Part shown: one piece after another, positions 18,618 to 52,518 of the stretch
Layout of the letters: each line of letters opens with the position of its first letter
How positions within the stretch are numbered: position 1 is the stretch's first letter
Assembly (NCBI GenBank): GCA_022763365.1
Contig: JALEGN010000016.1
Span: forward strand, 5,556 to 69,555
Reading direction: 5' to 3'
Length of the DNA: 64,000 nucleotides
From: Minisyncoccota bacterium
GTDB lineage: Bacteria; Patescibacteriota; Minisyncoccia; Phycocordibacterales; UBA1006
The notes under the pieces: model-generated
The model's database searches: none
Told to the model about the DNA's origin: nothing
The model's input: the letters and a program-made list of their open reading frames with translations, nothing else
Translations under genes and position numbers: made by a program

Positions 18618-19460
18618 CTATACCAACTGGTATAGTTTTTTTGCATTTGCTATGATTTGCCCTGCCATTTCATCTTCGGGAACTTTTTTAATTTTAGCTA
18701 TCTTACGGAGGACATACCTTACATGCGATGGTTCATTTCGTTCACCACGGTATGGATGTGGAGTAACATAAGGCGCATCAGTTTCAGAAAGAATTTTAGT
18801 CATAGGAACATGTTTTACTAATTTTTCATATACGCCAGCAAAAGTTACAACACCAGTGAAGGAAATATAAAAACCTAATTCAATAAATTCATCAATAATC
18901 TCTTTAGTTCCAGCAAAAAAATGTGCCTGACCACGTAAATTCCCTTTCTCACAGTATTCTCTCAAAATTACTAAGACATCTTCGTAGGCATCCATAGAAC
19001 CTTCTGACGGACGCACATGCAGCATTAACGGAAGATCCAGCTCAAGCGCTAACTCAATTTGCTGCCTAAAGGCTTTTTCTTGGGCTTCTTTGGTATCTTT
19101 GTCATTTCGATAATAATCAAGTCCACATTCACCAATTCCGACAACCTTTTTTGAAGAAAGTGCGAGTTCTTTATAATAATCATAATTAAAGACTTCTCCT
19201 CGAGAAGTAAATTCATCACCTTCATCACCAACCTCGTCATGATTATGAAAATGTTTACTGGTATGGATAGGATGGAGGCCTACCATTGCATACAAATGAT
19301 CATGATTATTTGCCAACTGTACTCCTAAAGCTGAGGTATCTTTTTGGGTACCAATATTAATAACCATAACATCATCATTTTTTGTACGCTCAATTACCTG
19401 ATTTCTGTCTTCGTCATAAATAACAAAATTCATGTGAGCATGCGTATCAATATATTTCAT
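18618..19460 (-). CDS. tatD: TatD-family metal-dependent DNase/hydrolase
   Basis: IDTHAHM, GECGLDYY, HVR… and SETDAPY motifs. Confidence 0.85.
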   Translation of the reverse strand: MKYIDTHAHMNFVIYDEDRNQVIERTKNDDVMVINIGTQKDTSALGVQLANNHDHLYAMVGLHPIHTSKHFHNHDEVGDEGDEFTSRGEVFNYDYYKELALSSKKVVGIGECGLDYYRNDKDTKEAQEKAFRQQIELALELDLPLMLHVRPSEGSMDAYEDVLVILREYCEKGNLRGQAHFFAGTKEIIDEFIELGFYISFTGVVTFAGVYEKLVKHVPMTKILSETDAPYVTPHPYRGERNEPSHVRYVLRKIAKIKKVPEDEMAGQIIANAKKLYQLV

Positions 19461-19482: not shown

Positions 19483-19512
19483 TAAAAAAAGCGACTTAGG
19501 AGTCGCTTTTTA
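19483..19512 (-). terminator. Terminator
   Basis: gcgact-tagg-agtcgc flanked by an A7 run and a T5 run. Confidence 0.45.
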
Positions 19513-19732
19513 ATTGCTTTGTAAGATATCGTGCCCTATCTTGGGCTTCTTGTAGGGTAATTTTCTGCTTAAATCTCTTAATGGATATTGAAATTTTATT
19601 TACAAATGTTCCCTGTACCGTTATTTGGTTAATAATCCATTCTTGTACTTTTTGGGAATTTTTCTCAAGCGTACGTGCAAGAGATCCATCATCAAGAAGC
19701 CAATGCTCTGATTTTTTAATCTCTTTTTTCAT
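19496..19732 (-). CDS. Small hypothetical protein
   Basis: 78-aa ORF, co-oriented with and immediately downstream of the ATP-grasp gene. Confidence 0.3.
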   Translation of the reverse strand: MKKEIKKSEHWLLDDGSLARTLEKNSQKVQEWIINQITVQGTFVNKISISIKRFKQKITLQEAQDRARYLTKQLKSDS

Positions 19733-19761
19733 AACAAATAAGCTTTGTAACCATTATATCA

Positions 19762-20775
19762 TTAAAAACCTAGTTTTTTTGATTTAATATCTTTCAAGAT
19801 TTGTTTATATAATTTTTCGATTCTCGTATAGGCTTTTATATTAAGCTCTGAAAAATTATGAAATCCAGGTGAGGCATTTAATTCTAGGAAATACCACATA
19901 TTCTTCTTTGGTTTTTTGGTAATATCTCCTTTCACCATAAGATCAACACCACAAAGGCGAAGACCTAAATCAGCTGCCGCTTTAATAGCTGCTGTTTTAT
20001 AATCATCATGAATAATGTCGCTGACATCTTCTGCATAACCACCAGCTGAGAGATTAGCATTGTCGAGCAGGCAGACTCTCTCACCTCGCTCTGGAATAGT
20101 TTTCAATGATTTTTTTTGTCGCTTAAGAACTGATTTTATTTTTTGGATATCAAGGGCGAATTTTCTACTTGAGTCTTGGTATTCTACAATTCTCTCATCT
20201 AAGAGTTCTTGAATATTTGAACCTCCATCACCTGTTACGGTTAATGGCATTCTCCTGTAGGCCGAAATAAATTTGTTGTTATAGACCAAGATACGGTAAT
20301 CATCTCCTGTGAAGAATTTTTGAACAAGAACCTTGTCATAATTTTTAAAGAGTTTAAAAAGTGCTTTCTTCAAAGATTTTTCATCATCGACACGTTCTAC
20401 ACCATTTCCCTGTAATCCTTCATTTGGTTTAACAATCAGTGGATATGAGAGTTTATTTCCAAATTGAATTGCCTCGACAATACCCTTATCAATACCATTA
20501 TCCGCACAGTAATCTTCAGAATAAAAAACATCACTTTTGATAATTGGGTATTTATTCTTTTTAAGAAAGGCATCAGTATAATGTTTATTCCCCGCAAGCA
20601 TATACGGACCTATTCGATTCACACGAATATCACCTCGCGTAATATAATGTTTGACTCCATTATCAAACTCAATACAACCAAAATCACCTTTTTTCCAATC
20701 AAGATGAAGTCGGTAATTAAACTCTGTTTTGAGTTTTTTTAAGATTTGCATATTAAAAGTAATGCGTTTTTTCAT
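19762..20775 (-). CDS. ATP-grasp ligase, cyanophycin-synthetase (CphA) N-terminal/ATP-grasp-domain-like, lacking a Mur-ligase domain
   Basis: …YPLIVKPNEGLQGNGV…KVLVQKFFTGDDYRILVYNNKFISAYRRMPLTVTGDGGSNIQELLDE… closely parallels the CphA G-domain (…VVIKP.DGNHGRG…GDDYRVLV.NGK..A.A.R.PA.V.GDG.ST…). Confidence 0.6.
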   Translation of the reverse strand: MKKRITFNMQILKKLKTEFNYRLHLDWKKGDFGCIEFDNGVKHYITRGDIRVNRIGPYMLAGNKHYTDAFLKKNKYPIIKSDVFYSEDYCADNGIDKGIVEAIQFGNKLSYPLIVKPNEGLQGNGVERVDDEKSLKKALFKLFKNYDKVLVQKFFTGDDYRILVYNNKFISAYRRMPLTVTGDGGSNIQELLDERIVEYQDSSRKFALDIQKIKSVLKRQKKSLKTIPERGERVCLLDNANLSAGGYAEDVSDIIHDDYKTAAIKAAADLGLRLCGVDLMVKGDITKKPKKNMWYFLELNASPGFHNFSELNIKAYTRIEKLYKQILKDIKSKKLGF

Positions 20776-20791
20776 ACCGCGAAATCATAAC

Positions 20792-20822
20792 AAAAAAAGC
20801 ACCTATTTACTAGTGCTTATGA
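20792..20822 (-). terminator. Terminator after metG
   Basis: agcac…gtgct hairpin flanked by an A7 run. Confidence 0.4.
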
Positions 20823-22292
20823 ATCCATGCGTACGAACAAAGGTTGTTCTGGGATTTTTACCTCTGTTAAACAATTTTGAATTGTTGCAGCGGTTTCTGG
20901 CATCACTGGATAGAGGCTGATTGCCAGACGAGATAATTCAGTTGCGAGGTGTTTTAAATCTCGGTGTGCTGTTTCAGGATCTTCTTTAATTTTTTTAAAG
21001 GGTTTATGTTCAGCAATAAATTGATCCATATCTCCAATCAATCGCCAAATTTCATCCATCATTTTATTAAAATCTCGTTCTTTTTCGATAGTCGATGAGT
21101 GAAAAGATAATACTGGTTCATGGTCAAAATTAATATCAGAAATATCTACTTCATAACTGGTAATCATTTTCATAAGACGTTGAACAAGATTCCCTAAACC
21201 ATTAGCCAAGTTTGCATTGTAGGCTTCGTGGAATTTTTCCATCGTCATATCTGAATCCTCAAAGGAGTTCATATGCCTGAGTAAATAATACCGCAAGGCC
21301 TCAGCTCCATATTTTTCAACAATGTCATATGGATCAATAACATTCCCTAACGATTTAGACATTTTCTGTCCTCCTGAATTAATAAACCCATTAATGATAA
21401 TTTGATGGCTGTTAGGCAATCCAGCTGCATGGAGCATGGATTGCCACATGGCTGATTGCTGGCGCAGATTATCTTTCCCGGCATATTGAATAGGTTTCCC
21501 TTCTATCCAGAATTTCTCAAAGGTATCAAGGTCGCCATCCCATCCTAAGGTTGAAATGTAATTCACTAAGGCATCAAACCATACGTACATAACATGCTCA
21601 TCATCTCCTGGCACCGGGATACCCCATGGCATTTTTGTTTTTAATCGTGAGATAGAAAAATCTTGTAATCCACCATCAACGAATGATTTTATTTCGTTAA
21701 ATCTAAAATCAGGTACCACAAAATCAGGACGTTCTTTATATAATTCTTTGAGGAAATTTTCACACTTAGAGAATTTAAAGAAGTAGTTTTCTTCATCAAT
21801 TATTTCAATTTCTCGATTTGGATGAATAGGACATTTTCCATCAACTAATTCTGAATCTGTTTTATACAGTTCACAACCTACACAATATTTTGCTTGGTAC
21901 GATTTTTTGTAAATATAACCGTTATCATTACATCGCTGCCAAAATGATTGAGCTGCCTTGATATGATGTTCATCGGTTGTCCGAATAAAATGAATATCTT
22001 CTTTGAGATGAAGTAATTCAATAAGACCCTTAAAGTCTTCAGCGTAAGGATCAACGTATGATTGTGGGTCAAGATTTGCTGCTTGAGCGTTTTCATAAAT
22101 TTTTACCCCGTGTTCATCAGTTCCTGTATTAAAAAACACCTCATGTCCTGACAGAGTGTAGTAACGAGCCAAAGCATCAGCTCGAATAATTTCCATAGCA
22201 AAACCAACATGTGGTTTTGAATTTACATACGGTAGCGTTGTTGTTATATATTGTGGTGTTTTCATACTATTTTTCTCTTGGTTTTGGAACAA
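20817..22292 (-). CDS. metG: Methionyl-tRNA synthetase
   Basis: Class I motifs PYVNSKPHVGF (HIGH-type) and KMSKSLGN, plus CxxC knuckles. Confidence 0.92.
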   Translation of the reverse strand: MFQNQEKNSMKTPQYITTTLPYVNSKPHVGFAMEIIRADALARYYTLSGHEVFFNTGTDEHGVKIYENAQAANLDPQSYVDPYAEDFKGLIELLHLKEDIHFIRTTDEHHIKAAQSFWQRCNDNGYIYKKSYQAKYCVGCELYKTDSELVDGKCPIHPNREIEIIDEENYFFKFSKCENFLKELYKERPDFVVPDFRFNEIKSFVDGGLQDFSISRLKTKMPWGIPVPGDDEHVMYVWFDALVNYISTLGWDGDLDTFEKFWIEGKPIQYAGKDNLRQQSAMWQSMLHAAGLPNSHQIIINGFINSGGQKMSKSLGNVIDPYDIVEKYGAEALRYYLLRHMNSFEDSDMTMEKFHEAYNANLANGLGNLVQRLMKMITSYEVDISDINFDHEPVLSFHSSTIEKERDFNKMMDEIWRLIGDMDQFIAEHKPFKKIKEDPETAHRDLKHLATELSRLAISLYPVMPETAATIQNCLTEVKIPEQPLFVRMDS

Positions 22293-45143: not shown

Positions 45144-46004
45144 ATGTTACACAACACAGATAAATTAAATCCCTTTGATCTTTCTTATCATGAGTTATTA
45201 AAGCTCATTCAGGATACAGGGACTTTTAAAGAAGACCGTACAGGAACCGGTACTCAAAGCCGTTTTGGGCATCAAATGAGATTTGATCTTTCAAAAGGCT
45301 TTCCTATTCTTACTACTAAAAAGGTCCATTTAAAGTCAATCATTTATGAGTTATTATGGCTCATTAAAGGAGATACTAATGTTAAGTATCTTCAAGAAAA
45401 CGGTGTACGCATCTGGAACGAATGGGCAGACGAAAATGGTGATCTTGGGCCAGTATATGGTGAACAGTGGAGAAACTGGAATGGAGACGGAATTGATCAA
45501 CTAAAGGGAGCAATAAATGATCTTAAAACCAATCCACATTCACGGCGTATTATGGTAAGCGCTTGGAATCCAAGTGTTATGCCAGACACCTCAGTATCAT
45601 TTTCTGAAAACGTTGCTAATGGTAAAGCGGCCTTACCGCCATGCCACGCCTTCTTTCAATTTTGGGTGGGAGATGGAAAACTATCTTGCCAACTCTATCA
45701 ACGAAGTGCAGATGTATTCTTAGGAGTACCTTTTAATATTGCATCCTATGCTTTATTAACCATGATGATGGCGCAAGTGTGTGGATACGAGTATGGTGAG
45801 TTTATTCATACTTTTGGTGATGTTCATATTTACAATAATCATCGAGATCAAATTAATGAGCAGTTATCCCGCGATTCAAAAGGGTCTATTCCACAGATGA
45901 AATTGAATCCTGAAATTAATGATATTGAAGACTTCGGTTATGACGACTTTGAGCTCGTTGGTTACGATCCACATCCCGTAATAAAAGGAGAAGTTTCAAT
46001 ATAA
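45144..46004 (+). CDS. thyA: Thymidylate synthase (ThyA)
   Basis: [18 protein letters not shown] (catalytic Cys), and [17 protein letters not shown]. Confidence 0.93.
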
Positions 46005-46015
46005 AATCAAATAAT

Positions 46016-46113
46016 TAGGTACCCCTTGGGTAAGGTTATATACCTTACCAATCAGAGAGTTTCATCTTTTCAATATTGATGAACACGGAACCACTAAAAC
46101 AAGTTGGTACCTA
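46016..46113 (+). ncRNA. Structured ~100-nt element in the thyA 3' region: three stems closed by an 8-bp outer helix
   Basis: Outer stem taggtacc (46016-23) / ggtaccta (46106-13). Inner hairpins ggtaaggt/accttacc (46029-49) and gtt(t)catc/gatgaac (46059-84). It is followed by a strong terminator. Confidence 0.25.
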
Positions 46114-46142
46114 AAAGCACTGCCCAAGGCAGTGCTTTTTCT
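46113..46142 (+). terminator. Strong intrinsic terminator
   Basis: aagcactgcc-caa-ggcagtgctt followed by a T5 run. Confidence 0.6.
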
Positions 46143-46276
46143 ATTTATATTTATTTCAAAATTCAATACTTGATTTGTGAAAATGAAATGAAATACAAGA
46201 CAATGAATTCTTTAATTTTTGAGGCACAGTTCCCTGTAGTGAAAAAATAAAGAATGAAACTAACGCAGTAGTTTAT

Positions 46277-47380
46277 CTATTTTAACGAATCAACTCCTAC
46301 CCATACATATTCCCAGGGTTCCGGATTAGGTCCCAAATTATCTACTCCATAGGGATAACTTGGAATAAAACCATATTCACGTGCATTGGCAAAATTATCT
46401 GCTGACATCCATTCGTAACACGGTGTATCTGCAAAAGCAAAAACCAAATAATCATTCCCACAACCAAAATCAACGGCATACCCTGAATGGTGTTTTGAAT
46501 ATGCTGGGATTGCTGAGCGAGATAATACATTATCTAGATGTTCGTCATGAATACCTGTAAGGACTTCTTCTGGATTGGTGAGGTTCATTTTATCAGTAAA
46601 AATATAACGCTGAGATGACGATGAACGATATCCTGAAACGAAATGTAAACGTATATTTTCATTCAACATGTCATTTCTCATTTTAACGTAAGCATCTTTG
46701 ACTTCGGGCCTCGTTCGTACGTTTTCAAAATAGATTAACTCTGATTCATCAGCAAAACCTCGCTGCCTATACCCACGTTCCTTGGCTTTTGCTTCGATAT
46801 AATCATCTACTTCATCAATATTATAAATATATTTTGTGAGAAAATTCAGATTTGAATTGTTTTCCTCAAAATTATTGTAGATATCAAGAAAATCTTGGGC
46901 AGAATAATATTTCTCTATATCATCTTCTTTATTATTTCCCTCATACGTGACAATAGGTTCAATAATAATTTCTGTTTCTGTTTCTGTTTCTGTTTCTGTT
47001 TCTGTAATTATGTTAGATTGCGTACTTATAACATTACCATAAAGAGCTAATTCACTTTGGTATGGATTATCATATGAAGTATTTGTTTCTTTCATGAACA
47101 CTTCTTCTGATTGGATTTGTTCATTAGATGTATCATCGGTAAATACAAAAAACTCTTCTGCCAATGGTTCAGAAGCTAAATTTTCTCCATTTTTTTCTTG
47201 ATGTGATAGATCTTCTAACTGATCCAAGGTATAGGCACGCGTTGAGTAATTAGCATCTGCCACTACCACAGGTGCTGACTCTGGTTGCCTATTTTCTGTA
47301 TAGGTAACATATACCAATAAACCAGTCCACGCACTGAGCAAGAAAAAAATGAGAACATATGTCCCATTGTTTTTTAACAT
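46277..47380 (-). CDS. Membrane-anchored VanY-like D-alanyl-D-alanine carboxypeptidase (peptidase M15B) with an internal (TE)n repeat
   Basis: N-terminal TM. C-terminal SGYRSSSSQ and SKHHSGYAVDF (VanY Zn-binding). A TETETETETETE tract in the linker. Confidence 0.6.
   Translation of the reverse strand: MLKNNGTYVLIFFLLSAWTGLLVYVTYTENRQPESAPVVVADANYSTRAYTLDQLEDLSHQEKNGENLASEPLAEEFFVFTDDTSNEQIQSEEVFMKETNTSYDNPYQSELALYGNVISTQSNIITETETETETETEIIIEPIVTYEGNNKEDDIEKYYSAQDFLDIYNNFEENNSNLNFLTKYIYNIDEVDDYIEAKAKERGYRQRGFADESELIYFENVRTRPEVKDAYVKMRNDMLNENIRLHFVSGYRSSSSQRYIFTDKMNLTNPEEVLTGIHDEHLDNVLSRSAIPAYSKHHSGYAVDFGCGNDYLVFAFADTPCYEWMSADNFANAREYGFIPSYPYGVDNLGPNPEPWEYVWVGVDSLK
46969..47004. repeat. Perfect hexanucleotide tandem repeat (tttctg)x6, in-frame and encoding (ET)6
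   Basis: 36 bp of exact tttctg units inside the VanY-like CDS. Confidence 0.9.
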
Positions 47381-47384
47381 ATGA

Positions 47385-48605
47385 TTATGCTCTTAGTATA
47401 TCATTTATACGATGAGCTAATGTAATCATATCCTTTTCTTTTTTACCACGTGTTGTTTCAGCAGCTGTTCCTAGGCGGAGACCTGAAGGATTAAATGGTG
47501 AGCGTGTATCAAAAGGAATCGTATTCATGTTTACAATGATTCCTTCTTTTTCTAATTTGGTTGAGGCTTCTTTACCAGTGATACCTTCTTTCCATACATC
47601 CATCAAAAATACATGATTATCAGTTCCACCAGAAGTGATTCGCCAACCAAGTTTTTTTAGTTCACCAGCGAGTGCTTTTGAATTTTTAACGACCTGCTGG
47701 GTATATTTATTAAATGATACTGAATCAGCCTCTTTTAAGGCAACAGCCAAAGCTGCAATTTGATTCATATGCGGACCACCTTGCATTCCTGGGAAGACAG
47801 ATTTTTGAATCTGCTGGAATAAGGTTGGTGCCATTTTTTGTTTAGCTCCCTTTTTCACCTTTGGTGCCTTTTTACCAATACCGTAATCATGACGTGCAAA
47901 AATCATTCCTCCACGTGGGCCTCGCAATACCTTATGAGTTGTTGTGGTGACAATATCAGCATAGTTAAATGGTGATGGGTGCTGACCACCGGCAATCAAT
48001 CCTGAAATGTGCGCCATATCAACCATTAAATATGCTCCAGCTGCATCAGCAACCGCTCGCATTTTTTTAAAGTTGATTTTTCGAGGGTAGGCAGAAAAAC
48101 CAGCAACCACAATATCTGGTTTTTCTTTTTTAGCGATTTTTATAAGTGCGTCATAATCAAGTTTTTCTGTTTTTTTATCAACACCGTAAGGAATTTGTTC
48201 CCAAAATTTTCCAGAAAACGAAACACCATGACCATGGGTTAAATGTCCACCATGATCAAGACTCATTCCCATAATTTTTCCTCCTTTGGGTACCAAGGCC
48301 GAGTAGACTGCAATATTTGCTGGTGATCCTGAATGCGGTTGAACATTCACTCCCCATTTTTTAGGATTGAGTTTAAAAAGTTTAAGTGCACGTTCACAGG
48401 CTAAATCTTCTATTTGATCGATGATTTCATTTCCTCCATAGTATCTGGCACCTGAATAACCTTCGGCGTATTTATTGGTTGTTTCAGTCCCTAATGCTTC
48501 AAGCACATCATCTGAAACATAGTTTTCTGAAGCCACCAAATTCACAACTGATTGCTGGCGTTTTTTTTCTGCTGCTAATAATTTTTTTACACGTGTATCT
48601 TTCAT
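47385..48605 (-). CDS. glyA: Serine hydroxymethyltransferase
   Basis: SLDHGGHLTHGH, a PLP-lysine region (…TTTTHKVLRGPRGG…), 406 aa. Confidence 0.92.
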   Translation of the reverse strand: MKDTRVKKLLAAEKKRQQSVVNLVASENYVSDDVLEALGTETTNKYAEGYSGARYYGGNEIIDQIEDLACERALKLFKLNPKKWGVNVQPHSGSPANIAVYSALVPKGGKIMGMSLDHGGHLTHGHGVSFSGKFWEQIPYGVDKKTEKLDYDALIKIAKKEKPDIVVAGFSAYPRKINFKKMRAVADAAGAYLMVDMAHISGLIAGGQHPSPFNYADIVTTTTHKVLRGPRGGMIFARHDYGIGKKAPKVKKGAKQKMAPTLFQQIQKSVFPGMQGGPHMNQIAALAVALKEADSVSFNKYTQQVVKNSKALAGELKKLGWRITSGGTDNHVFLMDVWKEGITGKEASTKLEKEGIIVNMNTIPFDTRSPFNPSGLRLGTAAETTRGKKEKDMITLAHRINDILRA

Positions 48606-48729
48606 AATTTTAGTATATCAAAAGACATCTAAAATAACTCTTGAAAAATTCTAAATTAATACCCAAATTATTGACTTATTTAAAAAAAAATTTATAGTTA
48701 AATTAAATAAACACTAAAAACTAAACATA

Positions 48730-49452
48730 ATGAAGCAACTCTTTTATTTTATTATTGTCTGTATTTTCTTGACTTCGTGTGAACCAATTAATAAAAATTC
48801 AGTTCATATGGGTGACGAGGATTTCATTACTGTACGAGCAATCGAAAATGTAGAGCCAATTGACACCATTGATGTTGAGGATTTACGATTCTTCGTACTC
48901 CCCATGGAGTCGAATCAAATCGTAGGTTACAAATACATTGATTCTACTGTAACAGAACGGATGGATAGAATTGAAGTCGAATATGATTCAATTCCTATTC
49001 GTAAAAAATACATACACATGACATTACAAAGTAGTACTCTGTATGATGGTGTACAATCTTCTGGTTCTTTATATGAATATGAGATTTCTCGATTATATAA
49101 AGTAAACCTTAATACGCTTGTGGATAATGACACTGGAAAGGACTTGTATACGACTGCAGAAATTGTATCAGACAGTATCAGAAATACTGATTCTTCTGAC
49201 AATACTGTATTTGGGATGATCAAAGTACTAGGAAAATTAGGAATTGAAAATGTCTTAGTACGCCGTGATTTAATAGAACAACCTATTAAAGGTCAGATTG
49301 TTCTTTATTCAAAACTTGAGCGGTCCATTTCCCCAAAATTAGATTGTAATTGCACAAGTGCTCCTAAGGTTGTACTGCCTATTGAATTAAATATTGATAA
49401 ACGCTGGTCATACAAAACAACACCTGAAGAATTTAACTATCTTTGGCAATAA
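48730..49452 (+). CDS. Putative lipoprotein
   Basis: Signal peptide with lipobox FLTSC. 240 aa. Confidence 0.4.
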   Translation: MKQLFYFIIVCIFLTSCEPINKNSVHMGDEDFITVRAIENVEPIDTIDVEDLRFFVLPMESNQIVGYKYIDSTVTERMDRIEVEYDSIPIRKKYIHMTLQSSTLYDGVQSSGSLYEYEISRLYKVNLNTLVDNDTGKDLYTTAEIVSDSIRNTDSSDNTVFGMIKVLGKLGIENVLVRRDLIEQPIKGQIVLYSKLERSISPKLDCNCTSAPKVVLPIELNIDKRWSYKTTPEEFNYLWQ

Positions 49453-49458
49453 AACAAA

Positions 49459-49494
49459 ATAAAAACCGCATCTTTTTGATGCGGTGTTTTTTTG
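49459..49494. terminator. Bidirectional terminator
   Basis: accgcatc-ttttt-gatgcggt flanked by an A4 run and a T7 run. Confidence 0.55.
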
Positions 49495-49502
49495 TAAAGA
49501 AG

Positions 49503-51011
49503 TTATATTAATTTTTCCATAACTTTTTTGAATCTTTCAATAAGTTTAGAAAACTTTTCAAATTCCTTATCGGTTATTTCGTTTTCAAATTTCTTGATAT
49601 CTGAAATGAGTTTCTGCGCCTGTTCACGGCTTTTTTCTTGAGCATCGTCTACTGGCAAATAATCAAACTTTTGCTTTAAATCTCGGAAGGTATTGATCTC
49701 AGAACGGTGTAATTCTGCGTTTTTTTCAGCAGTATCAACCAATTCTTGAATTTCTTGATCCCATTCTTGGATTTTACGATGTATCTCTTCAAAACTTCCA
49801 GGATTACTTAGACTTCCTTTTTCTTCTGAAAGAGGGGCTTTTATTTCATCTATTCGCTTGAAAAAAGCAGTTGCCCTATAAGCAGTATTATTCTCAAGAA
49901 GTCGAATCTGGTTAATGGCTTTAACAAGATAAGCATCAAGATCAAAGTATGATTTCTGGACAAGCTCGTATAGTTTTAGTTCTTTAGGAAGATTAACTAT
50001 TAGATATTGCCTTTTATTTTCAAACAATTGTCGCAATTCTTGAAAATCATAATCATATGAGGAGTAAGAATCTCTTGGATCATTATTCCTCAGTTCTAAC
50101 AAGATTTTTTCATGACTATGCAGTGAGTTTTGCAATTTTTCTAAGATATCAGTATATATTTGCTGAGCCCATAGTATATCAAATTTAAAACCACTCAGTT
50201 CATCGAAAATCTCTCGAGCCTTTGAAGTTACCAATCCATAATCTCGTAGTTTTCTATTGAATGTTAATCGTTTTTTAATAAATCTTACAAAACGAAAAAT
50301 CACGCGATAGAGAAATACAATAATAACCAAAACAACAATACCTATACCAACATACTTTAAAACTGTAAGAAATTTATCAAGTGATTCTTGACTCTCACGA
50401 TCTTCGATTTCTTGCTGCAGGCGTTCTTGTTCTAAGAGTTCTTGTTGGTAAATTTTATCTCGTTGTTCCCAAAGTTCTATTTCACGTTGATGAGCTATAG
50501 TACTATTAACCAAACTAACGATTTCATTCGTGACGGAATTGAGAAATTCTTTGTTATCCCCTTCGAGGAAATAATTTCTATTTTGCTTTTTGATATCGCT
50601 GATATCAGAAGGATCTATTAGATCGCTTCGATACTTTAAATCAAAGACTCTGTCACTCGTTGATAATATAAAAAAGATTTGATTATCTGCTTCATATAAT
50701 CCCCAAGCACCAATAAGTTTATACAAATAGCTACCGAGATTATTATGACGGGCACGACTAAGTGCGGTGCCTTTTGTATCAACACCGTACCGAGCCAACG
50801 AATCAATAACAATAACACGGAAAGAAATTTCAGAATTGTTTTTGAATCTTTGTAAATACTGTTGAGCGTCAAGAAGTTCTTGTTCCGAAAACATTGAAGC
50901 TTCATCATACAAATACGTATCATCTCCTAATTCAGGAAAAGATATTAAAGTATCTTGAGCTGATACAGAAAAAGAAATACATAACAGAATTAATTGAAAA
51001 TACATTTTCAT
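49503..51011 (-). CDS. TPM-domain (TLP18.3/Psb32-like) membrane protein with a long C-terminal coiled coil
   Basis: Signal peptide, then a TPM-like region (…SEQELLDAQQYLQRF…FRVIVIDSL…), a TM helix, and a charged helical tail. Confidence 0.4.
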   Translation of the reverse strand: MKMYFQLILLCISFSVSAQDTLISFPELGDDTYLYDEASMFSEQELLDAQQYLQRFKNNSEISFRVIVIDSLARYGVDTKGTALSRARHNNLGSYLYKLIGAWGLYEADNQIFFILSTSDRVFDLKYRSDLIDPSDISDIKKQNRNYFLEGDNKEFLNSVTNEIVSLVNSTIAHQREIELWEQRDKIYQQELLEQERLQQEIEDRESQESLDKFLTVLKYVGIGIVVLVIIVFLYRVIFRFVRFIKKRLTFNRKLRDYGLVTSKAREIFDELSGFKFDILWAQQIYTDILEKLQNSLHSHEKILLELRNNDPRDSYSSYDYDFQELRQLFENKRQYLIVNLPKELKLYELVQKSYFDLDAYLVKAINQIRLLENNTAYRATAFFKRIDEIKAPLSEEKGSLSNPGSFEEIHRKIQEWDQEIQELVDTAEKNAELHRSEINTFRDLKQKFDYLPVDDAQEKSREQAQKLISDIKKFENEITDKEFEKFSKLIERFKKVMEKLI

Positions 51012-51051
51012 TTTTTAATTTTTTAATAATTTAACTTAATTAAATCACAAA

Positions 51052-51084
51052 AAAAATAAAAAGCTAGTAATTAGCTTTTTATTT
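51052..51084 (-). terminator. Terminator
   Basis: aagcta-gtaat-tagctt followed by a T5 run. Confidence 0.45.
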
Positions 51085-51423
51085 ATCGTCATCAGTTGGA
51101 ACACGTATGAACACCTCTTTTCCTTCTTTATTAATATGAGTTTTATATTTTCGTTTTTTGTTTTTTTCAATTTTTTTAAGTATTTCTTCCTGCAGATCAA
51201 ATCCCATAATTTCAGAAATACCTAACAAGAAAATAGCAACATCGGCCAATTCTTCACCAACACCCGATTCGTCTTGATTGTATTTTTTAAATGCCTCTGA
51301 AAGTTCTTCATGAGCGCGGCAGAATTCCTGAGCGATGTCGGTGGTATTAAATCCTTTATCGATTTTATTTTGATAAACGTCTTTTTGTAGTTGTTGAAGA
51401 TTAATCATATTTTTGTTCTTCAT
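51079..51423 (-). CDS. MazG-like nucleotide pyrophosphohydrolase
   Basis: EELSEAFKK…EELADVAIFLLGI, the MazG EExx(E/D) metal-binding helix pair. 114 aa. Confidence 0.5.
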   Translation of the reverse strand: MKNKNMINLQQLQKDVYQNKIDKGFNTTDIAQEFCRAHEELSEAFKKYNQDESGVGEELADVAIFLLGISEIMGFDLQEEILKKIEKNKKRKYKTHINKEGKEVFIRVPTDDDK

Positions 51424-51886
51424 TAATTATTAAATCATACTGAATACCAGCTTCAGCAAAAATTTCTCGTGAACGCTCTCCCCTATGATAGTCTTTCCAT
51501 GCAACAACCCGAGAAATTCCAACAGCACAAATCATTTTAGCGCAAGTATAACATGGTGTCATTTTACAATACAATGTTCCACCTTCAATTGATACGCCGT
51601 GACGTGCAGCAGCAGCAATAGCATTTTGTTCAGCATGTATTGTTCGAATACAGTGATCCGAGGTTTCGCCGCTAAGATGGGTAACACTGTGCATTTCGTG
51701 TCCTAAATCATCGCAATGTGCCAACCCTGATGGTGCACCAGCATAACCAGTTGTCAGAATTCTATTTTCCTTGGTAATTACACATCCAACCTGACCACGA
51801 TCACAAGTTCCGCGTGTACCAACCGATTGCATAATATCAATAAAATATTCATCCCAATTAGGTCGCTGATTTTTTGAGTCATTCAT
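51401..51886 (-). CDS. dCMP deaminase (cytidine/deoxycytidylate deaminase zinc-binding family, ComEB-like)
   Basis: HAEQNAI and PCYTCAK zinc motifs. Confidence 0.8.
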   Translation of the reverse strand: MNDSKNQRPNWDEYFIDIMQSVGTRGTCDRGQVGCVITKENRILTTGYAGAPSGLAHCDDLGHEMHSVTHLSGETSDHCIRTIHAEQNAIAAAARHGVSIEGGTLYCKMTPCYTCAKMICAVGISRVVAWKDYHRGERSREIFAEAGIQYDLIINEEQKYD

Positions 51887-51990
51887 AGTACTATTATTAT
51901 AGTAGTGAATTTCAAAAAATAACAGTTAATAATTTTACAAAAATTAAATTAATTGTTATATTAAATATGAATTCATTAAAATTTACACGT

Positions 51991-52518
51991 ATGATCAAAG
52001 CAATTGTTGCCTTTACAAATAACCAAGGTATTGGTTTTGATAATGAAATTCTTTTCAATATCAAAGCTGACCAGCAACGGTTTAAAGACCTCACCCTAAA
52101 CCAGGTTGTTGTCATGGGTCGAAAGACTTATGAATCCCTTCCAAAAAGTGTTCGTCCACTTCCTAAGAGAATCAATAAGATTCTTTCAAGAAATTCTGTT
52201 CAAAAAGAAGTTGGACTCTTTAGCTATGACGACCCTATGAAACTCCTTGCGAAAGCTCGTGGGTATTCAGGCGATATCTGGGTCATTGGTGGTGAACAGA
52301 TTTATAGTTTGTTTATGCCAGTTATCGAAGAAATTGAAGTTACTCGTATCTTCTCAGATAAAGAGGCAAACAAATTTTTCCCTTCATTTGAAAAAGAATT
52401 TGAGCTAACTTTCCAGTCAGACATGATGTTTGATAAGAAAAATGATGTTGAGTTTCAATACCAAACATGGACCCGCAAAAAGAAAACAAAAAAGGATAAT
52501 ATCCTCGAAGAAGTTTAA
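51991..52518 (+). CDS. folA: Dihydrofolate reductase
   Basis: Internal start gives MIKAIVAFTNNQGIG…. VVMGRKTYESLP and VIGGEQIY motifs are present. Confidence 0.75.
   Translation: MIKAIVAFTNNQGIGFDNEILFNIKADQQRFKDLTLNQVVVMGRKTYESLPKSVRPLPKRINKILSRNSVQKEVGLFSYDDPMKLLAKARGYSGDIWVIGGEQIYSLFMPVIEEIEVTRIFSDKEANKFFPSFEKEFELTFQSDMMFDKKNDVEFQYQTWTRKKKTKKDNILEEV

What the first reader, a model, noticed from the sequence alone, without database searches (positions are those of the whole stretch)
19496..20775. Stand-alone cyanophycin-synthetase-like ATP-grasp ligase plus a small downstream ORF, inserted between tatD and metG
The 337-aa protein matches the CphA ATP-grasp (G) domain well (VKPNEGLQGNGV…FFTGDDYRILVYNNKFISAYRRMPLTVTGDGGSNIQELL) but has no C-terminal Mur-ligase (M) domain. 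It could be a non-ribosomal amino-acid or peptide ligase, for example a poly-Asp/Glu or single-residue ligase. A 78-aa ORF is co-transcribed downstream and shares a terminator; it could be a substrate or partner. metG and tatD are often directly adjacent in bacteria, so this pair looks like an accessory insertion.
Basis: partly seen in the sequence, partly recalled or inferred. Interest (0 to 1): 0.6.

Follow-up and report, generated by a model that had tools for sequence, protein, structure and literature searches.

The report
CPR-wide ATP-grasp ligase, folate-linked, not cyanophycin
This gene encodes an intact member of a large, uncharacterised family of small ATP-dependent ligases found almost only in ultra-small Patescibacteria (CPR); databases often mislabel it "cyanophycin synthetase", its relatives sit next to folate genes in many lineages, and the 78-aa gene beside it occurs in only two genomes.

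Summary
Both ORFs are real and lie exactly where reported, between two terminator-like hairpins. The 337-aa protein is a complete ATP-grasp enzyme. Its closest relatives by sequence and fold are the G domain of cyanophycin synthetase and the ATP-grasp half of GshF.

It is not a truncated CphA. It belongs to a separate branch of ~335-aa stand-alone proteins found in at least 556 species genomes, essentially all Patescibacteria. There is no trace of a lost Mur-ligase domain.

It is not a recent accessory insertion. The order metG, ATP-grasp, tatD is kept in relatives down to 38-41% identity, and GC content matches the flanks.

The 78-aa ORF is a real gene (dN/dS about 0.12) but occurs in only 2 of 9 close genomes. 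It is basic, has no acidic tail, and its last codons form the terminator stem. It is not a conserved partner.

Across 80 loci, 39% have a folate-pathway gene directly adjacent and 51% have one within four genes, in 25 different arrangements. The commonest partner is a FolC2-type gamma-glutamate ligase, followed by DHFR and 5-formyl-THF cyclo-ligase; FolC, SHMT and FolD each occur in a few loci.

My best guess is a second ligase acting on the folate tail, analogous to CofF or MptN. The substrate is unproven. The CphA1 arginine that holds the incoming aspartate is Asp in most of the family and His here.

The parts
19762..20775 (-). 337-aa stand-alone ATP-grasp ligase, a member of a Patescibacteria-wide family related to the CphA G domain and the GshF ATP-grasp
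   Evidence: ORF. Pfam RimK 4e-14 and Dala_Dala_lig_C 1.5e-10. TIGR02068 1.6e-47. AlphaFold2 pLDDT 91.5. Foldseek TMq 0.70-0.73 to the CphA1 G domain. Catalytic residues K116, R161, D278, E298, N300 and G304 are all present.
19496..19732 (-). 78-aa basic protein of unknown function; a real gene restricted to a narrow lineage
   Evidence: Only one homologue in 5.8 billion proteins (P0122, 75% identity), in the same slot in L006. dN/dS 0.12. pI 9.9. No Pfam, NCBIfam, PADLOC or PHROG match. AlphaFold2 pLDDT 44.
19486..19511 (-). Terminator-like hairpin plus T-run that ends the two-gene unit; the stem overlaps the last codons and stop of the 78-aa ORF
   Evidence: A matching hairpin and T-run follow the homologue in L006.
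19733..19761 (-). 29-nt spacer between the ATP-grasp stop and the small-ORF start, containing TGATATAAT (an extended -10-like box)
   Evidence: Sequence read directly. L006 has TATAAT at the same place. Whether it fires is untested.
20797..20818 (-). Terminator-like hairpin after metG that separates metG from the ATP-grasp unit
20817..22292 (-). metG (methionyl-tRNA synthetase, 491 aa), the conserved upstream neighbour
   Evidence: PF09334 4.6e-94. The synteny holds in L001-L004, L054 and L088-L090.
18618..19460 (-). tatD-family hydrolase (280 aa), the conserved downstream neighbour
   Evidence: PF01026 2.6e-69. The synteny is shown.

Best explanation
The 337-aa ORF is an intact housekeeping-type member of a large family of ~335-aa stand-alone ATP-grasp ligases specific to Patescibacteria. 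The family is a sister branch to the G domain of cyanophycin synthetases and the ATP-grasp module of GshF.

Mechanism, inferred from conserved catalytic residues and fold: it binds Mg-ATP, phosphorylates a substrate carboxylate to an acyl-phosphate that is stabilised by R161, and an amine held by the conserved 'ANLSxGG' loop attacks it to form an amide bond. This probably happens in a dimer, as in CphA1. It does not make cyanophycin.

Function, inferred from family-wide gene neighbourhood: it works in folate/one-carbon cofactor metabolism. The most likely role is a second ligase acting on the gamma-glutamyl tail of salvaged folate or a related pterin. It would work beside a gamma-glutamate ligase of the FolC2/CofE or FolC type, as the ATP-grasp enzymes CofF and MptN do for F420 and tetrahydrosarcinapterin.

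In this genome the gene keeps an old metG, X, tatD position. The folate genes ThyA, SHMT and DHFR lie 25-30 kb away. The 78-aa gene downstream is a lineage-restricted addition that is probably co-transcribed but is not a conserved partner.
For: Family and fold:
- More than 950 clusters at 90% identity, almost all ~335 aa and from CPR.
- At least 556 GTDB species genomes carry a relative.
- 196 clusters at 50% identity reach E<=1e-30; this count also includes some multidomain non-family relatives.
- The profile matches CphA2 at 4.6e-42, CphA1 at about 1e-40 and GshF at 2.7e-38, against RimK at 3e-11 and Ddl at 8e-11.
- Foldseek TMq is about 0.7 to CphA1 and GshF over ~320 of 337 residues.
- It forms a separate branch.

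Catalytic residues, mapped onto TeCphA1 (PMC9427784): K261=K116, R309=R161, R323=R175, N394=N241, D431=D278, E450=E298 and G456=G304. All are invariant in 44 sequences.

Folate link:
- 31 of 80 loci have a folate gene directly adjacent, and 41 of 80 have one within +-4 genes.
- Folate genes are 15.4% of genes at distance 1-2 against 5.2% at distance 5 or more (Fisher p = 5.6e-6).
- There are 25 distinct architectures across Wolfe-, Vogel-, Lipton-, Adler-, Kaiser- and Magasanikbacteria among others.
- Partners were verified by HMM: F420_ligase/CofE-like (best NCBIfam hit TIGR04132, 'putative folate metabolism gamma-glutamate ligase', 225 bits against 139 for true CofE), DHFR, 5-FTHF cyclo-ligase, FolC (TIGR01499, above cutoff), SHMT, FolD, ThyA and RibD_C.
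- Spacing is operon-like: CofE-like to ATP-grasp gaps of -4, +2 and +24 nt, and ATP-grasp to 5-FCL gaps of +3, +3 and +12 nt.
- A CofE homologue (Chlamydia CT611) complements an E. coli folC mutant (PMC1971073).

Synteny.
Against: - No member of the family has been characterised, and the substrate is inferred only from context.
- In the window's own lineage no folate gene is adjacent, and no CofE-like, 5-FCL or FolC gene lies in the 64 kb.
- About half of the 80 loci show no folate neighbour.
- Many DHFR and PurL adjacencies are convergent or divergent rather than operonic, and the loci are phylogenetically related, so the p-values overstate independence.
- The family is much closer to CphA and GshF than to the known cofactor-tail ligases CofF (33.6 bits) and MptN (51 bits).
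- The nucleophile pocket is more acidic than in CphA1 (R458 becomes D, R390 becomes L, A391 becomes D). That argues against an acidic incoming amino acid such as Glu, unless it binds differently.
- The query, P0002 and P0003 have additionally lost three conserved acidic residues (E/D59 to M/L/F, D63 to N/S, D306 to H). This sub-clade may therefore have a different specificity from the rest of the family.
Confidence: 0.5

Rival explanations
1. It is a generic small-molecule amino-acid or dipeptide ligase unrelated to folate. Examples would be a GshB-like step in a thiol or compatible-solute pathway, an Ngg-like dipeptide synthetase, or a ligase adding a cationic amine. On this view the folate neighbourhood reflects shared regulation or chance retention in tiny genomes.
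For: The closest characterised relatives all act on small peptides: GshF at 119 bits and N-acetylglutaminylglutamine synthetase at 95 bits. Acidic substitutions in the nucleophile pocket (D306-equivalent, D238) would suit a cationic amine. Half of the loci have no folate neighbour, and the window's own locus has none.
Against: 25 different architectures keep a folate gene within two genes, including overlapping or 2-3-nt gaps with FolC2-like and 5-FCL genes. No gshA, GNAT or polyamine gene recurs among the neighbours.
Confidence: 0.25
2. In this sub-clade the ATP-grasp modifies, or works with, the 78-aa protein. That could be a RimK-like C-terminal extension, a graspetide-type RiPP maturation, or a regulatory complex.
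For: There is a 29-nt gap, the genes are on the same strand, and there is one terminator after the pair. The small gene is under purifying selection with a 100% conserved N-terminal 23 residues, a leader-like pattern. The query, P0002 and P0003 share substitutions at three otherwise conserved acidic active-site positions.
Against: P0002 shares those substitutions but its genome lacks the small ORF (36-nt gap). The ORF is absent from 7 of 9 close relatives and from all 80 distant loci. The protein is basic, has no acidic, Ser or Thr-rich tail, and its C-terminus differs between the two copies (..KSDS against ..KSD) and is encoded by the terminator stem. The small ORF has its own TATAAT box. The enzyme is of the CphA/GshF type, not the MdnC/RimK type. 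There are no PADLOC or PHROG hits for the small ORF.
Confidence: 0.08
3. It is a truncated or degenerate cyanophycin synthetase, or a one-step poly-Asp enzyme, as the database name 'cyanophycin synthetase' implies.
For: The best HMM and PDB hits are CphA1 and CphA2 G domains. The Arg309, Arg323 and Asn394 equivalents are conserved.
Against: It scores 162 bits against the TIGR02068 cutoff of 850. The N and M domains are absent in all ~335-aa members. The family branches outside CphA1, CphA2 and GshF. Arg458, which binds the alpha-carboxylate of the incoming Asp and is required for activity (PMC9427784), is Asp in 40 of 44 members and His here. Arg323 and Asn394 are also conserved in GshF, so they are not specific to aspartate. 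No cyanophycinase or arginine-related gene recurs nearby.
Confidence: 0.03
4. It is the lineage's D-Ala-D-Ala ligase or a RimK-type ribosomal protein S6 glutamate ligase, that is, a housekeeping ATP-grasp enzyme under another name.
For: JGI names the family 'Ddl-like ATP-grasp'. No other ATP-grasp gene is seen in the window or the loci. The S6 gene lies 2-3 genes downstream in the synteny group. PHROG 2599, 'S6 glutaminyl transferase', gives a weak hit at 2.7e-07.
Against: The Ddl models score 43 bits against a 245-bit cutoff and RimK scores 76 against 143. Fold TMq to Ddl and RimK is about 0.45-0.5 against 0.7 for CphA and GshF. No mur or ddl-cluster genes recur among the neighbours. S6 C-termini in the synteny group end in K, Q, K and E, so there is no conserved Glu acceptor. 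S6 proximity is confined to one lineage.
Confidence: 0.05

Closest known systems
Cyanophycin synthetase CphA1/CphA2, G (glutathione-synthetase-like ATP-grasp) domain
   Same: It is the best sequence and fold match: profile E about 1e-40 and TMq about 0.7 over nearly the whole protein. It has the same Gcore/Glid/G-omega layout, including the 'ANLSxGG' large loop. The ATP, Mg and acyl-phosphate residues are conserved (K261, R309, D431, E450, G456 equivalents).
   Different: There is no N domain and no Mur-ligase M domain. It is only about 30% identical and branches outside CphA1 plus CphA2. Arg458, the clamp for the incoming aspartate, is Asp or His. Arg390 is replaced by Leu. His267 of the P-loop is Gln in 33 of 44 members. 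The genomic context is folate genes, not nitrogen storage.
GshF (GshAB) C-terminal ATP-grasp module
   Same: It is equally close by profile (2.7e-38) and by fold (3ln6, TMq 0.69). GshF acts on a gamma-glutamyl peptide and adds an amino acid to the C-terminal alpha-carboxylate. That chemistry is a plausible model for acting on a folate gamma-glutamyl tail.
   Different: GshF is fused to a gamma-glutamylcysteine ligase and this protein is stand-alone. It scores 119 bits against a 425-bit cutoff. No gshA-like gene is found nearby.
CofF and MptN (ATP-grasp alpha-L-glutamate ligases for F420 and tetrahydrosarcinapterin; from my own knowledge of Li et al. 2003, PNAS)
   Same: This is the functional analogy. 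A small stand-alone ATP-grasp ligase partners a CofE-type gamma-glutamate ligase to finish a cofactor tail. Here the commonest neighbour is a CofE-like, FolC2-type protein.
   Different: Sequence similarity is only distant (MptN 51 bits, CofF 34 bits). They belong to the RimK branch, which lacks the G-omega module. The cofactor here would be folate or a pterin, not F420 or H4MPT. No biochemical evidence exists.
FolC2 / TIGR04132 CofE-like folate gamma-glutamate ligase (Chlamydia CT611; PMC1971073)
   Same: It is the most frequent genomic partner of the family, found in 22 of 80 loci and often at operon-like spacing. It is a precedent for non-Mur-ligase enzymes building the folate tail.
   Different: It has a different fold and belongs to a different family. 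It is a neighbour, not a homologue, of the protein in the window, and it is absent from the 64-kb window.

Membership tests
ATP-grasp superfamily (carboxylate-amine ligases) | ATP-grasp fold with the conserved Lys (ATP phosphates), the Asp/Glu/Asn Mg2+ ligands, and the Arg and Gly that stabilise the acyl-phosphate and oxyanion | tested here: met
   Pfam RimK scores 53 bits against a 21-bit cutoff and Dala_Dala_lig_C scores 41 against 24. K116, R161, D278, E298, N300 and G304 are invariant. The confident model superposes on ATP-grasp structures.
Cyanophycin synthetase CphA1 (TIGR02068) | Three-domain N-G-M architecture of about 870 aa, scoring above the curated cutoff | tested here: not met
   The protein is 337 aa and only model positions 210-448 are matched. 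It scores 162 bits against a cutoff of 850. No Mur_ligase domain was found by Pfam.
Cyanophycin synthetase CphA1 (TIGR02068) | Aspartate-recognition residue Arg458 (the alpha-carboxylate clamp, required for activity) and the primer-binding Glu215' | tested here: not met
   The Arg458 equivalent is His306 here and Asp in 40 of 44 family members. The Glu215 equivalent is Met59 here and E/D in most of the family.
Cyanophycin synthetase CphA1 (TIGR02068) | Branches within the CphA clade | tested here: not met
   It is about 30% identical to CphA1, CphA2 and GshF alike, while those share 34-42% with one another. The neighbour-joining tree puts the family outside them. The tree is small and midpoint-rooted.
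GshF / GshAB bifunctional glutathione synthetase | N-terminal gamma-glutamylcysteine ligase fused to the ATP-grasp, scoring above the cutoff | tested here: not met
   It scores 119 bits against a cutoff of 425 and only the C-terminal module is matched.
D-Ala-D-Ala ligase | Scores above the cutoff on the Ddl models, with a Ddl N-terminal domain | tested here: not met
   TIGR01205 scores 43 bits against 245.65. The profile reaches only E = 8e-11 against PDB Ddl. TMq is about 0.45.
RimK family alpha-L-glutamate ligases (including CofF and MptN) | Scores above the cutoff on TIGR00768, NF040720 or TIGR04443 | tested here: not met
   The scores are 76 against 143, 51 against 350 and 34 against 300.
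RimK family alpha-L-glutamate ligases (including CofF and MptN) | Partnered with a CofE-type gamma-glutamate ligase in a cofactor-tail pathway (for CofF) | tested here: inconclusive
   For the family this holds in 22 of 80 loci. For the window itself no CofE-like gene lies in the 64 kb.
Graspetide (RiPP) ATP-grasp plus precursor peptide | A conserved adjacent precursor with a leader and a Thr/Ser plus Asp/Glu core; an MdnB/MdnC-type ligase | tested here: not met
   The small ORF is present in 2 of 9 close genomes and in none of the 80 others. It has no such core. The enzyme is of the CphA/GshF type.
Patescibacteria ~335-aa stand-alone CphA-G/GshF-like ATP-grasp family (unnamed) | Full-length alignment of ~335 aa and the family-invariant motifs (KPN..G, DYR, SAY.R.P, LLDNANLS.GG, H256, E.N..PG) | tested here: met
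   It is 36-71% identical over 95-100% of its length to the family. 32 invariant columns are shared. However, three nearly invariant acidic positions (59, 63, 306) are changed in the query sub-clade.

The most novel reading that the evidence does not exclude
The Patescibacteria ATP-grasp family is a previously unrecognised cofactor-tail ligase. On this reading, CPR bacteria that salvage folate decorate its gamma-glutamyl tail, or a related pterin, with an extra non-canonical residue. The acidic nucleophile pocket suggests that the residue could be cationic. The enzyme would act together with a FolC2- or FolC-type gamma-glutamate ligase. This would be a new enzymatic step and a new folate form in a huge, mostly uncultured part of the bacterial tree. 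In the query's sub-clade the active site has been re-tuned (loss of three acidic residues), and two genomes have recruited a small basic protein.
Probability: 0.25. Interest if true: 0.7.

Novelty: new variant of a known kind. Interest (0 to 1): 0.45.

Why it matters
This family sits in hundreds of Patescibacteria genomes of only about 600-1000 genes, so it is likely to do something important. No member has been characterised, and NCBI often names it "cyanophycin synthetase". That label can seed false claims of nitrogen-storage polymer synthesis in CPR metabolic reconstructions.

The recurring and variably arranged linkage to FolC2-like, FolC, 5-FCL, DHFR, SHMT and FolD genes gives a concrete hypothesis that is cheap to test. 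It concerns how these auxotrophic, host-dependent bacteria handle salvaged folate.

For the specific locus in the window the result is more ordinary. It is a conserved core gene in an old syntenic position, plus one orphan small gene.

Tried and rejected
- **Lost M domain.** Only about 300 nt lie between the ATP-grasp stop and tatD. They hold the 78-aa ORF, which has no Mur-ligase similarity, and all homologues are ~335 aa.
- **Recent horizontal insertion.** GC content is 0.32-0.36 across the ORFs and their flanks, and the synteny is conserved down to 38% identity.
- **Rosetta-stone fusions.** The ~640-aa hits are tandem ATP-grasp duplications. The >1000-aa hits are multi-ATP-grasp proteins with acylphosphatase or MmgE/PrpD domains. 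Neither is informative for this family.
- **Structure of the 78-aa protein.** The AlphaFold2 model has pLDDT 44, so I did not run a fold search.
- **Remote homologues of the 78-aa protein.** The 5.8-billion-protein search, a tblastn of all 90 loci at E<=10, Pfam, NCBIfam, PADLOC and PHROGs found nothing beyond P0122.
- **RimK/S6 idea.** S6 C-termini are not conserved.
- **Second ATP-grasp or Ddl in the window or loci.** None was found, but this says nothing about the rest of the genomes.
- **Literature.** No paper in the library links this family, or 'cyanophycin synthetase', to CPR/Parcubacteria function.
- **Whole-genome co-occurrence profiling.** This could not be done because only loci, not genomes, are accessible.
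Full report
**1. Observation**

The six-frame ORF list shows a 337-aa ORF at 19762..20775 (-) and a 78-aa ORF at 19496..19732 (-). They lie between metG (20817..22292, -) and tatD (18618..19460, -).

On the minus strand, a G+C-rich hairpin followed by a T-run lies right after metG (20818..20797). Another lies right after the 78-aa ORF (19511..19486). None lies in the 29-nt spacer between the two ORFs.

**2. What the 337-aa protein is**

Pfam places it in the ATP-grasp superfamily, with RimK and Dala_Dala_lig_C above their cutoffs.

NCBIfam ranks the matches as follows. All are far below the curated full-length cutoffs.

| Model | Score (bits) |
|---|---|
| Cyanophycin synthetase, G-domain portion (model positions 210-448) | 162 (E = 1.6e-47) |
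| GshAB, C-terminal module | 119 |
| N-acetylglutaminylglutamine synthetase | 95 |
| RimK | 76 |
| MptN | 51 |
| Ddl | 43 |
| CofF | 34 |

A 44-sequence profile gives the same picture against PDB sequences: CphA2 4.6e-42, CphA1 about 1e-40, GshF 2.7e-38, RimK 3e-11 and Ddl 8e-11.

An AlphaFold2 model built with that alignment is confident (pLDDT 91.5). Foldseek aligns about 320 of its 337 residues to the G domain of CphA1 (TMq 0.70-0.73), to GshF (0.69) and to CphA2 (0.66). Ddl, RimK and LysX reach only about 0.45-0.5.

So the whole protein equals one complete G-type ATP-grasp module, including the G-omega insertion.

**3. It is a family of its own, not a truncated CphA**

- The 5.8-billion-protein search returned more than 950 clusters. 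Nearly all are 320-350 aa and come from Patescibacteria (Kaiser-, Nomura-, Taylor-, Falkow-, Paceibacteria and others). Their automatic names are 'cyanophycin synthetase' or 'Ddl-like ATP-grasp enzyme'.
- The query is identical to a hypothetical protein of a Candidatus Pacebacteria MAG.
- The exhaustive HMMER search found 196 clusters at 50% identity with E<=1e-30; some of these are multidomain non-family relatives.
- Over the common core the family is about 30% identical to CphA1, CphA2 and GshF alike. Those three share 34-42% with one another. A neighbour-joining tree puts the CPR family on a separate branch.
- There is no room for, and no trace of, a Mur-ligase domain downstream.

**4. Active site**

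I verified the numbering of Trichodesmium CphA1 from the printed alignment and took residue roles from PMC9427784.

| TeCphA1 residue and role | Query | Across 44 family sequences |
|---|---|---|
| Lys261, ATP lysine | K116 | invariant |
| Arg309, acyl-phosphate arginine | R161 | invariant |
| Asp431 / Glu450, Mg2+ ligands | D278 / E298 | invariant |
| Gly456, oxyanion glycine | G304 | invariant |
| Arg323 | R175 | invariant |
| Asn394, loop residue in a shared 'ANLSxGG' motif | N241 | invariant |
| Arg458, clamps the alpha-carboxylate of the incoming aspartate | H306 | Asp in 40 of 44; His in the query, P0002 and P0003 |
| Arg390 | L237 | Leu (invariant) |
| Ala391 | D238 | Asp in 43 of 44 |

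The enzyme therefore looks catalytically competent. Arg323 and Asn394 are also conserved in GshF, so they do not indicate aspartate specificity.

Arg458 is required for CphA1 activity. CphA2 has Tyr at that position and GshF has Met.

The nucleophile pocket is thus different from, and more acidic than, that of CphA1. The terminal sub-clade formed by the query, P0002 and P0003 has in addition replaced three otherwise conserved acidic residues: E/D59 (the counterpart of CphA1 Glu215') to M/L/F, D63 to N/S, and D306 to H. This hints at altered specificity in that sub-clade.

**5. Is it an accessory insertion?**

No. Relatives at 71% (L001), 59% (L088), 53% (L002), 52% (L089) and 41% (L003) identity have the same order, (AI-2E) metG, ATP-grasp, tatD. 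So does a Taylorbacteria genome at 38% (L054). In several of them the order continues as S6, SSB, S18. GC content is uniform across the region. This is an old, vertically inherited arrangement in part of the Paceibacteria.

**6. The 78-aa ORF**

- Its only homologue anywhere is a 76-aa protein (75% identity). That protein sits in the same slot, between the ATP-grasp gene and tatD, in L006. The ligase of L006 is 63% identical to the query.
- dN/dS is 0.12, like tatD at 0.10. The first 23 residues are identical. It is therefore a real, selected gene.
- It is missing from seven other close relatives. In six of them tatD starts 36-59 nt after the ligase stop. In L087 the next gene, 121 nt on, is not tatD. 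L001, which has the closest ligase, is among those lacking it. It is also missing from all 80 distant loci.
- The protein is basic (pI 9.9), predicted to be helical, and has no acidic, Ser or Thr-rich tail.
- Its final codons (K-S-D-S-stop) are one arm of the terminator hairpin, and the last residue differs between the two copies.
- A TGATATAAT box sits in the spacer upstream, so independent transcription is possible.
- There are no Pfam, NCBIfam, PADLOC or PHROG hits. The AlphaFold2 model is unusable at pLDDT 44.

It is best described as a lineage-restricted orphan gene that is probably co-transcribed. A substrate or partner role is not excluded but has little support.

**7. What the family does: evidence from context**

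I called ORFs in the 80 species-genome loci, the fetched relatives and the window, and clustered them by BLASTP. The recurrent neighbours were verified with HMMs:

- a CofE-like F420_ligase protein, whose best NCBIfam model is TIGR04132, 'putative folate metabolism gamma-glutamate ligase' (225 bits against 139 for true CofE)
- DHFR
- 5-formyl-THF cyclo-ligase
- FolC (above cutoff)
- SHMT, FolD and ThyA
- a RibD_C/DHFR-like reductase
- dCTP and dCMP deaminases
- PurL and PurQ
- a Vut_1 / queuosine-precursor-type transporter

After removing duplicate loci, the numbers are as follows.

| Measure | Result |
|---|---|
| Loci with a folate gene directly adjacent | 31 of 80 (39%) |
| Loci with a folate gene within +-4 genes | 41 of 80 (51%) |
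| Share of folate genes among genes at distance 1-2 | 15.4% |
| Share of folate genes among genes at distance 5 or more | 5.2% (Fisher p = 5.6e-6) |
| Distinct +-2-gene architectures containing a folate gene | 25 |

The association is spread over many candidate phyla. It includes operon-like spacing:

- Vut_1, CofE-like, ATP-grasp, with gaps of -4, +2 and +24 nt
- ATP-grasp, 5-FCL, with gaps of +3, +3 and +12 nt
- ATP-grasp, FolC
- SHMT, FolD, ATP-grasp

A CofE homologue from Chlamydia (CT611, 'FolC2') complements an E. coli folC mutant (PMC1971073). So a CofE-like protein in organisms without F420 is a credible folate gamma-glutamate ligase.

**8. Proposed mechanism**

- *Shown.* The fold is intact and the catalytic machinery is conserved. 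The protein belongs to the clade whose characterised members activate the C-terminal alpha-carboxylate of a beta- or gamma-linked peptide and add an amino acid (CphA, GshF).
- *Inferred.* The CPR enzyme performs the same acyl-phosphate chemistry on a folate-related carboxylate. The most plausible site is the gamma-glutamyl tail. It would act alongside whichever gamma-glutamate ligase the genome carries (FolC2 or FolC). This is a functional parallel to CofE plus CofF in F420 synthesis and to MptN in tetrahydrosarcinapterin synthesis. That comparison rests on my own knowledge, and sequence similarity to those enzymes is only distant.
- *Unknown.* The identity of the added residue. The acidic pocket argues against a simple copy of Asp or Glu addition.
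- *Caveats.* The window's own locus has no folate neighbour. ThyA, SHMT, dCMP deaminase and DHFR lie 25-30 kb away, and no CofE-like, 5-FCL or FolC gene is in the window. Half of the loci show no folate neighbour. Many DHFR and PurL adjacencies are convergent or divergent. The loci are not phylogenetically independent.

**9. Rivals**

- A folate-unrelated small-molecule ligase remains quite possible (about 0.25).
- Ddl or RimK roles (about 0.05) are contradicted by scores, fold, missing context and non-conserved S6 C-termini.
- A true cyanophycin-synthetase role (about 0.03) is contradicted by scores, missing domains and key residues.

**10. Novelty and verdict**

The gene is a normal, conserved member of a known-to-exist but uncharacterised and frequently misnamed family. 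The chemistry class is familiar. What is new is the recognition of the family as a separate CPR-specific branch with a robust folate-gene linkage and a distinctive nucleophile pocket.

The library search found no paper addressing it. One 2026 preprint takes 'cyanophycin synthetase' annotations in Patescibacteria at face value. I did not verify that those are this family.

I rate it a new variant of a known kind, of moderate interest (0.45). The family-level hypothesis is worth testing.

Noticed in passing
window 16862..17617 (-): The ribosomal protein S6 gene encodes 251 aa. It has an S6 core, a long acidic linker (EEYEDEEYEDDADESEEDESESSES) and a helix-hairpin-helix (HHH_5) C-terminal domain. 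The same extended architecture occurs in relatives L002, L006 and L089 (PF01250 plus PF14520). The C-terminal residues are not conserved (K, Q, K, E).
   Followed up: partly
window 17678..18610; L001 6962-7747; L006 4959-5387: The slot between tatD and S6 is a variable region holding unrelated, lineage-specific hypothetical ORFs. The window has 121 aa (-) and 158 aa (+), neither with a Pfam hit. L001 has 69, 69 and 86 aa, and L006 has 142 aa. A bidirectional terminator-like hairpin sits at 18614..18639.
   Followed up: no
window 45177..52401: There is a loose folate/dTMP gene set: ThyA 45177-46001 (+), SHMT 47394-48533 (-), dCMP deaminase 51404-51886 (-) and DHFR 51994-52401 (+). No CofE-like, 5-FCL or FolC gene was detected anywhere in the 64 kb by tblastn.
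   Followed up: partly
P0026, P0033, P0034, P0041, P0048, P0063, P0064, P0080, P0091, P0104: NCBI names many ~335-aa members of this family 'cyanophycin synthetase', although they lack the N and M domains and score 162 bits against a cutoff of 850. This is probably systematic over-annotation that can propagate into CPR metabolic reconstructions. A 2026 Saccharimonadia preprint reports 'cyanophycin synthetase' in 5 of 21 MAGs; I did not check whether those are this family.
   Followed up: partly
P0128, P0157, P0185, P0195, P0203, P0186: The nearest relatives outside the stand-alone family include giant proteins of 870-1470 aa. They have two or three ATP-grasp modules plus acylphosphatase, MmgE/PrpD, TPR or LPG_synthase_C domains. 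About 640-aa tandem ATP-grasp proteins (P0165, P0191, P0254, P0255) also occur. I know of no characterised member; origin and function were not examined.
   Followed up: no
L023, L032, L042, L050, L059: There is a recurrent run L11, Vut_1 transporter (TIGR00697 queuosine-precursor transporter family), [RibD_C], CofE-like, ATP-grasp. A 7-deazapurine-type transporter embedded in a folate-like module suggests it may import a pterin or folate compound in these CPR lineages.
   Followed up: no
L060, L070, L019, L067: Four loci come from MAGs labelled Gammaproteobacteria, Sumerlaeia or Chthoniobacterales. L070 shares its gene order with a Patescibacteria locus (L028), and L060 shares neighbour clusters with CPR loci. 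These labels therefore look like mis-binning or mis-classification rather than occurrence outside CPR.
   Followed up: partly
L087 1754-4001: The contig carrying a 65%-identical ATP-grasp homologue has about 2.2 kb upstream with no called genes. It lacks the metG and tatD neighbours. The gene caller gave only a 267-aa product, although tblastn aligns 331 residues.
   Followed up: no
window 22267..22292: The AI-2E family transporter gene and metG overlap by 26 nt on the minus strand. The same tight pairing, AI-2E then metG, is conserved in relatives L001-L003 and L089.
   Followed up: no
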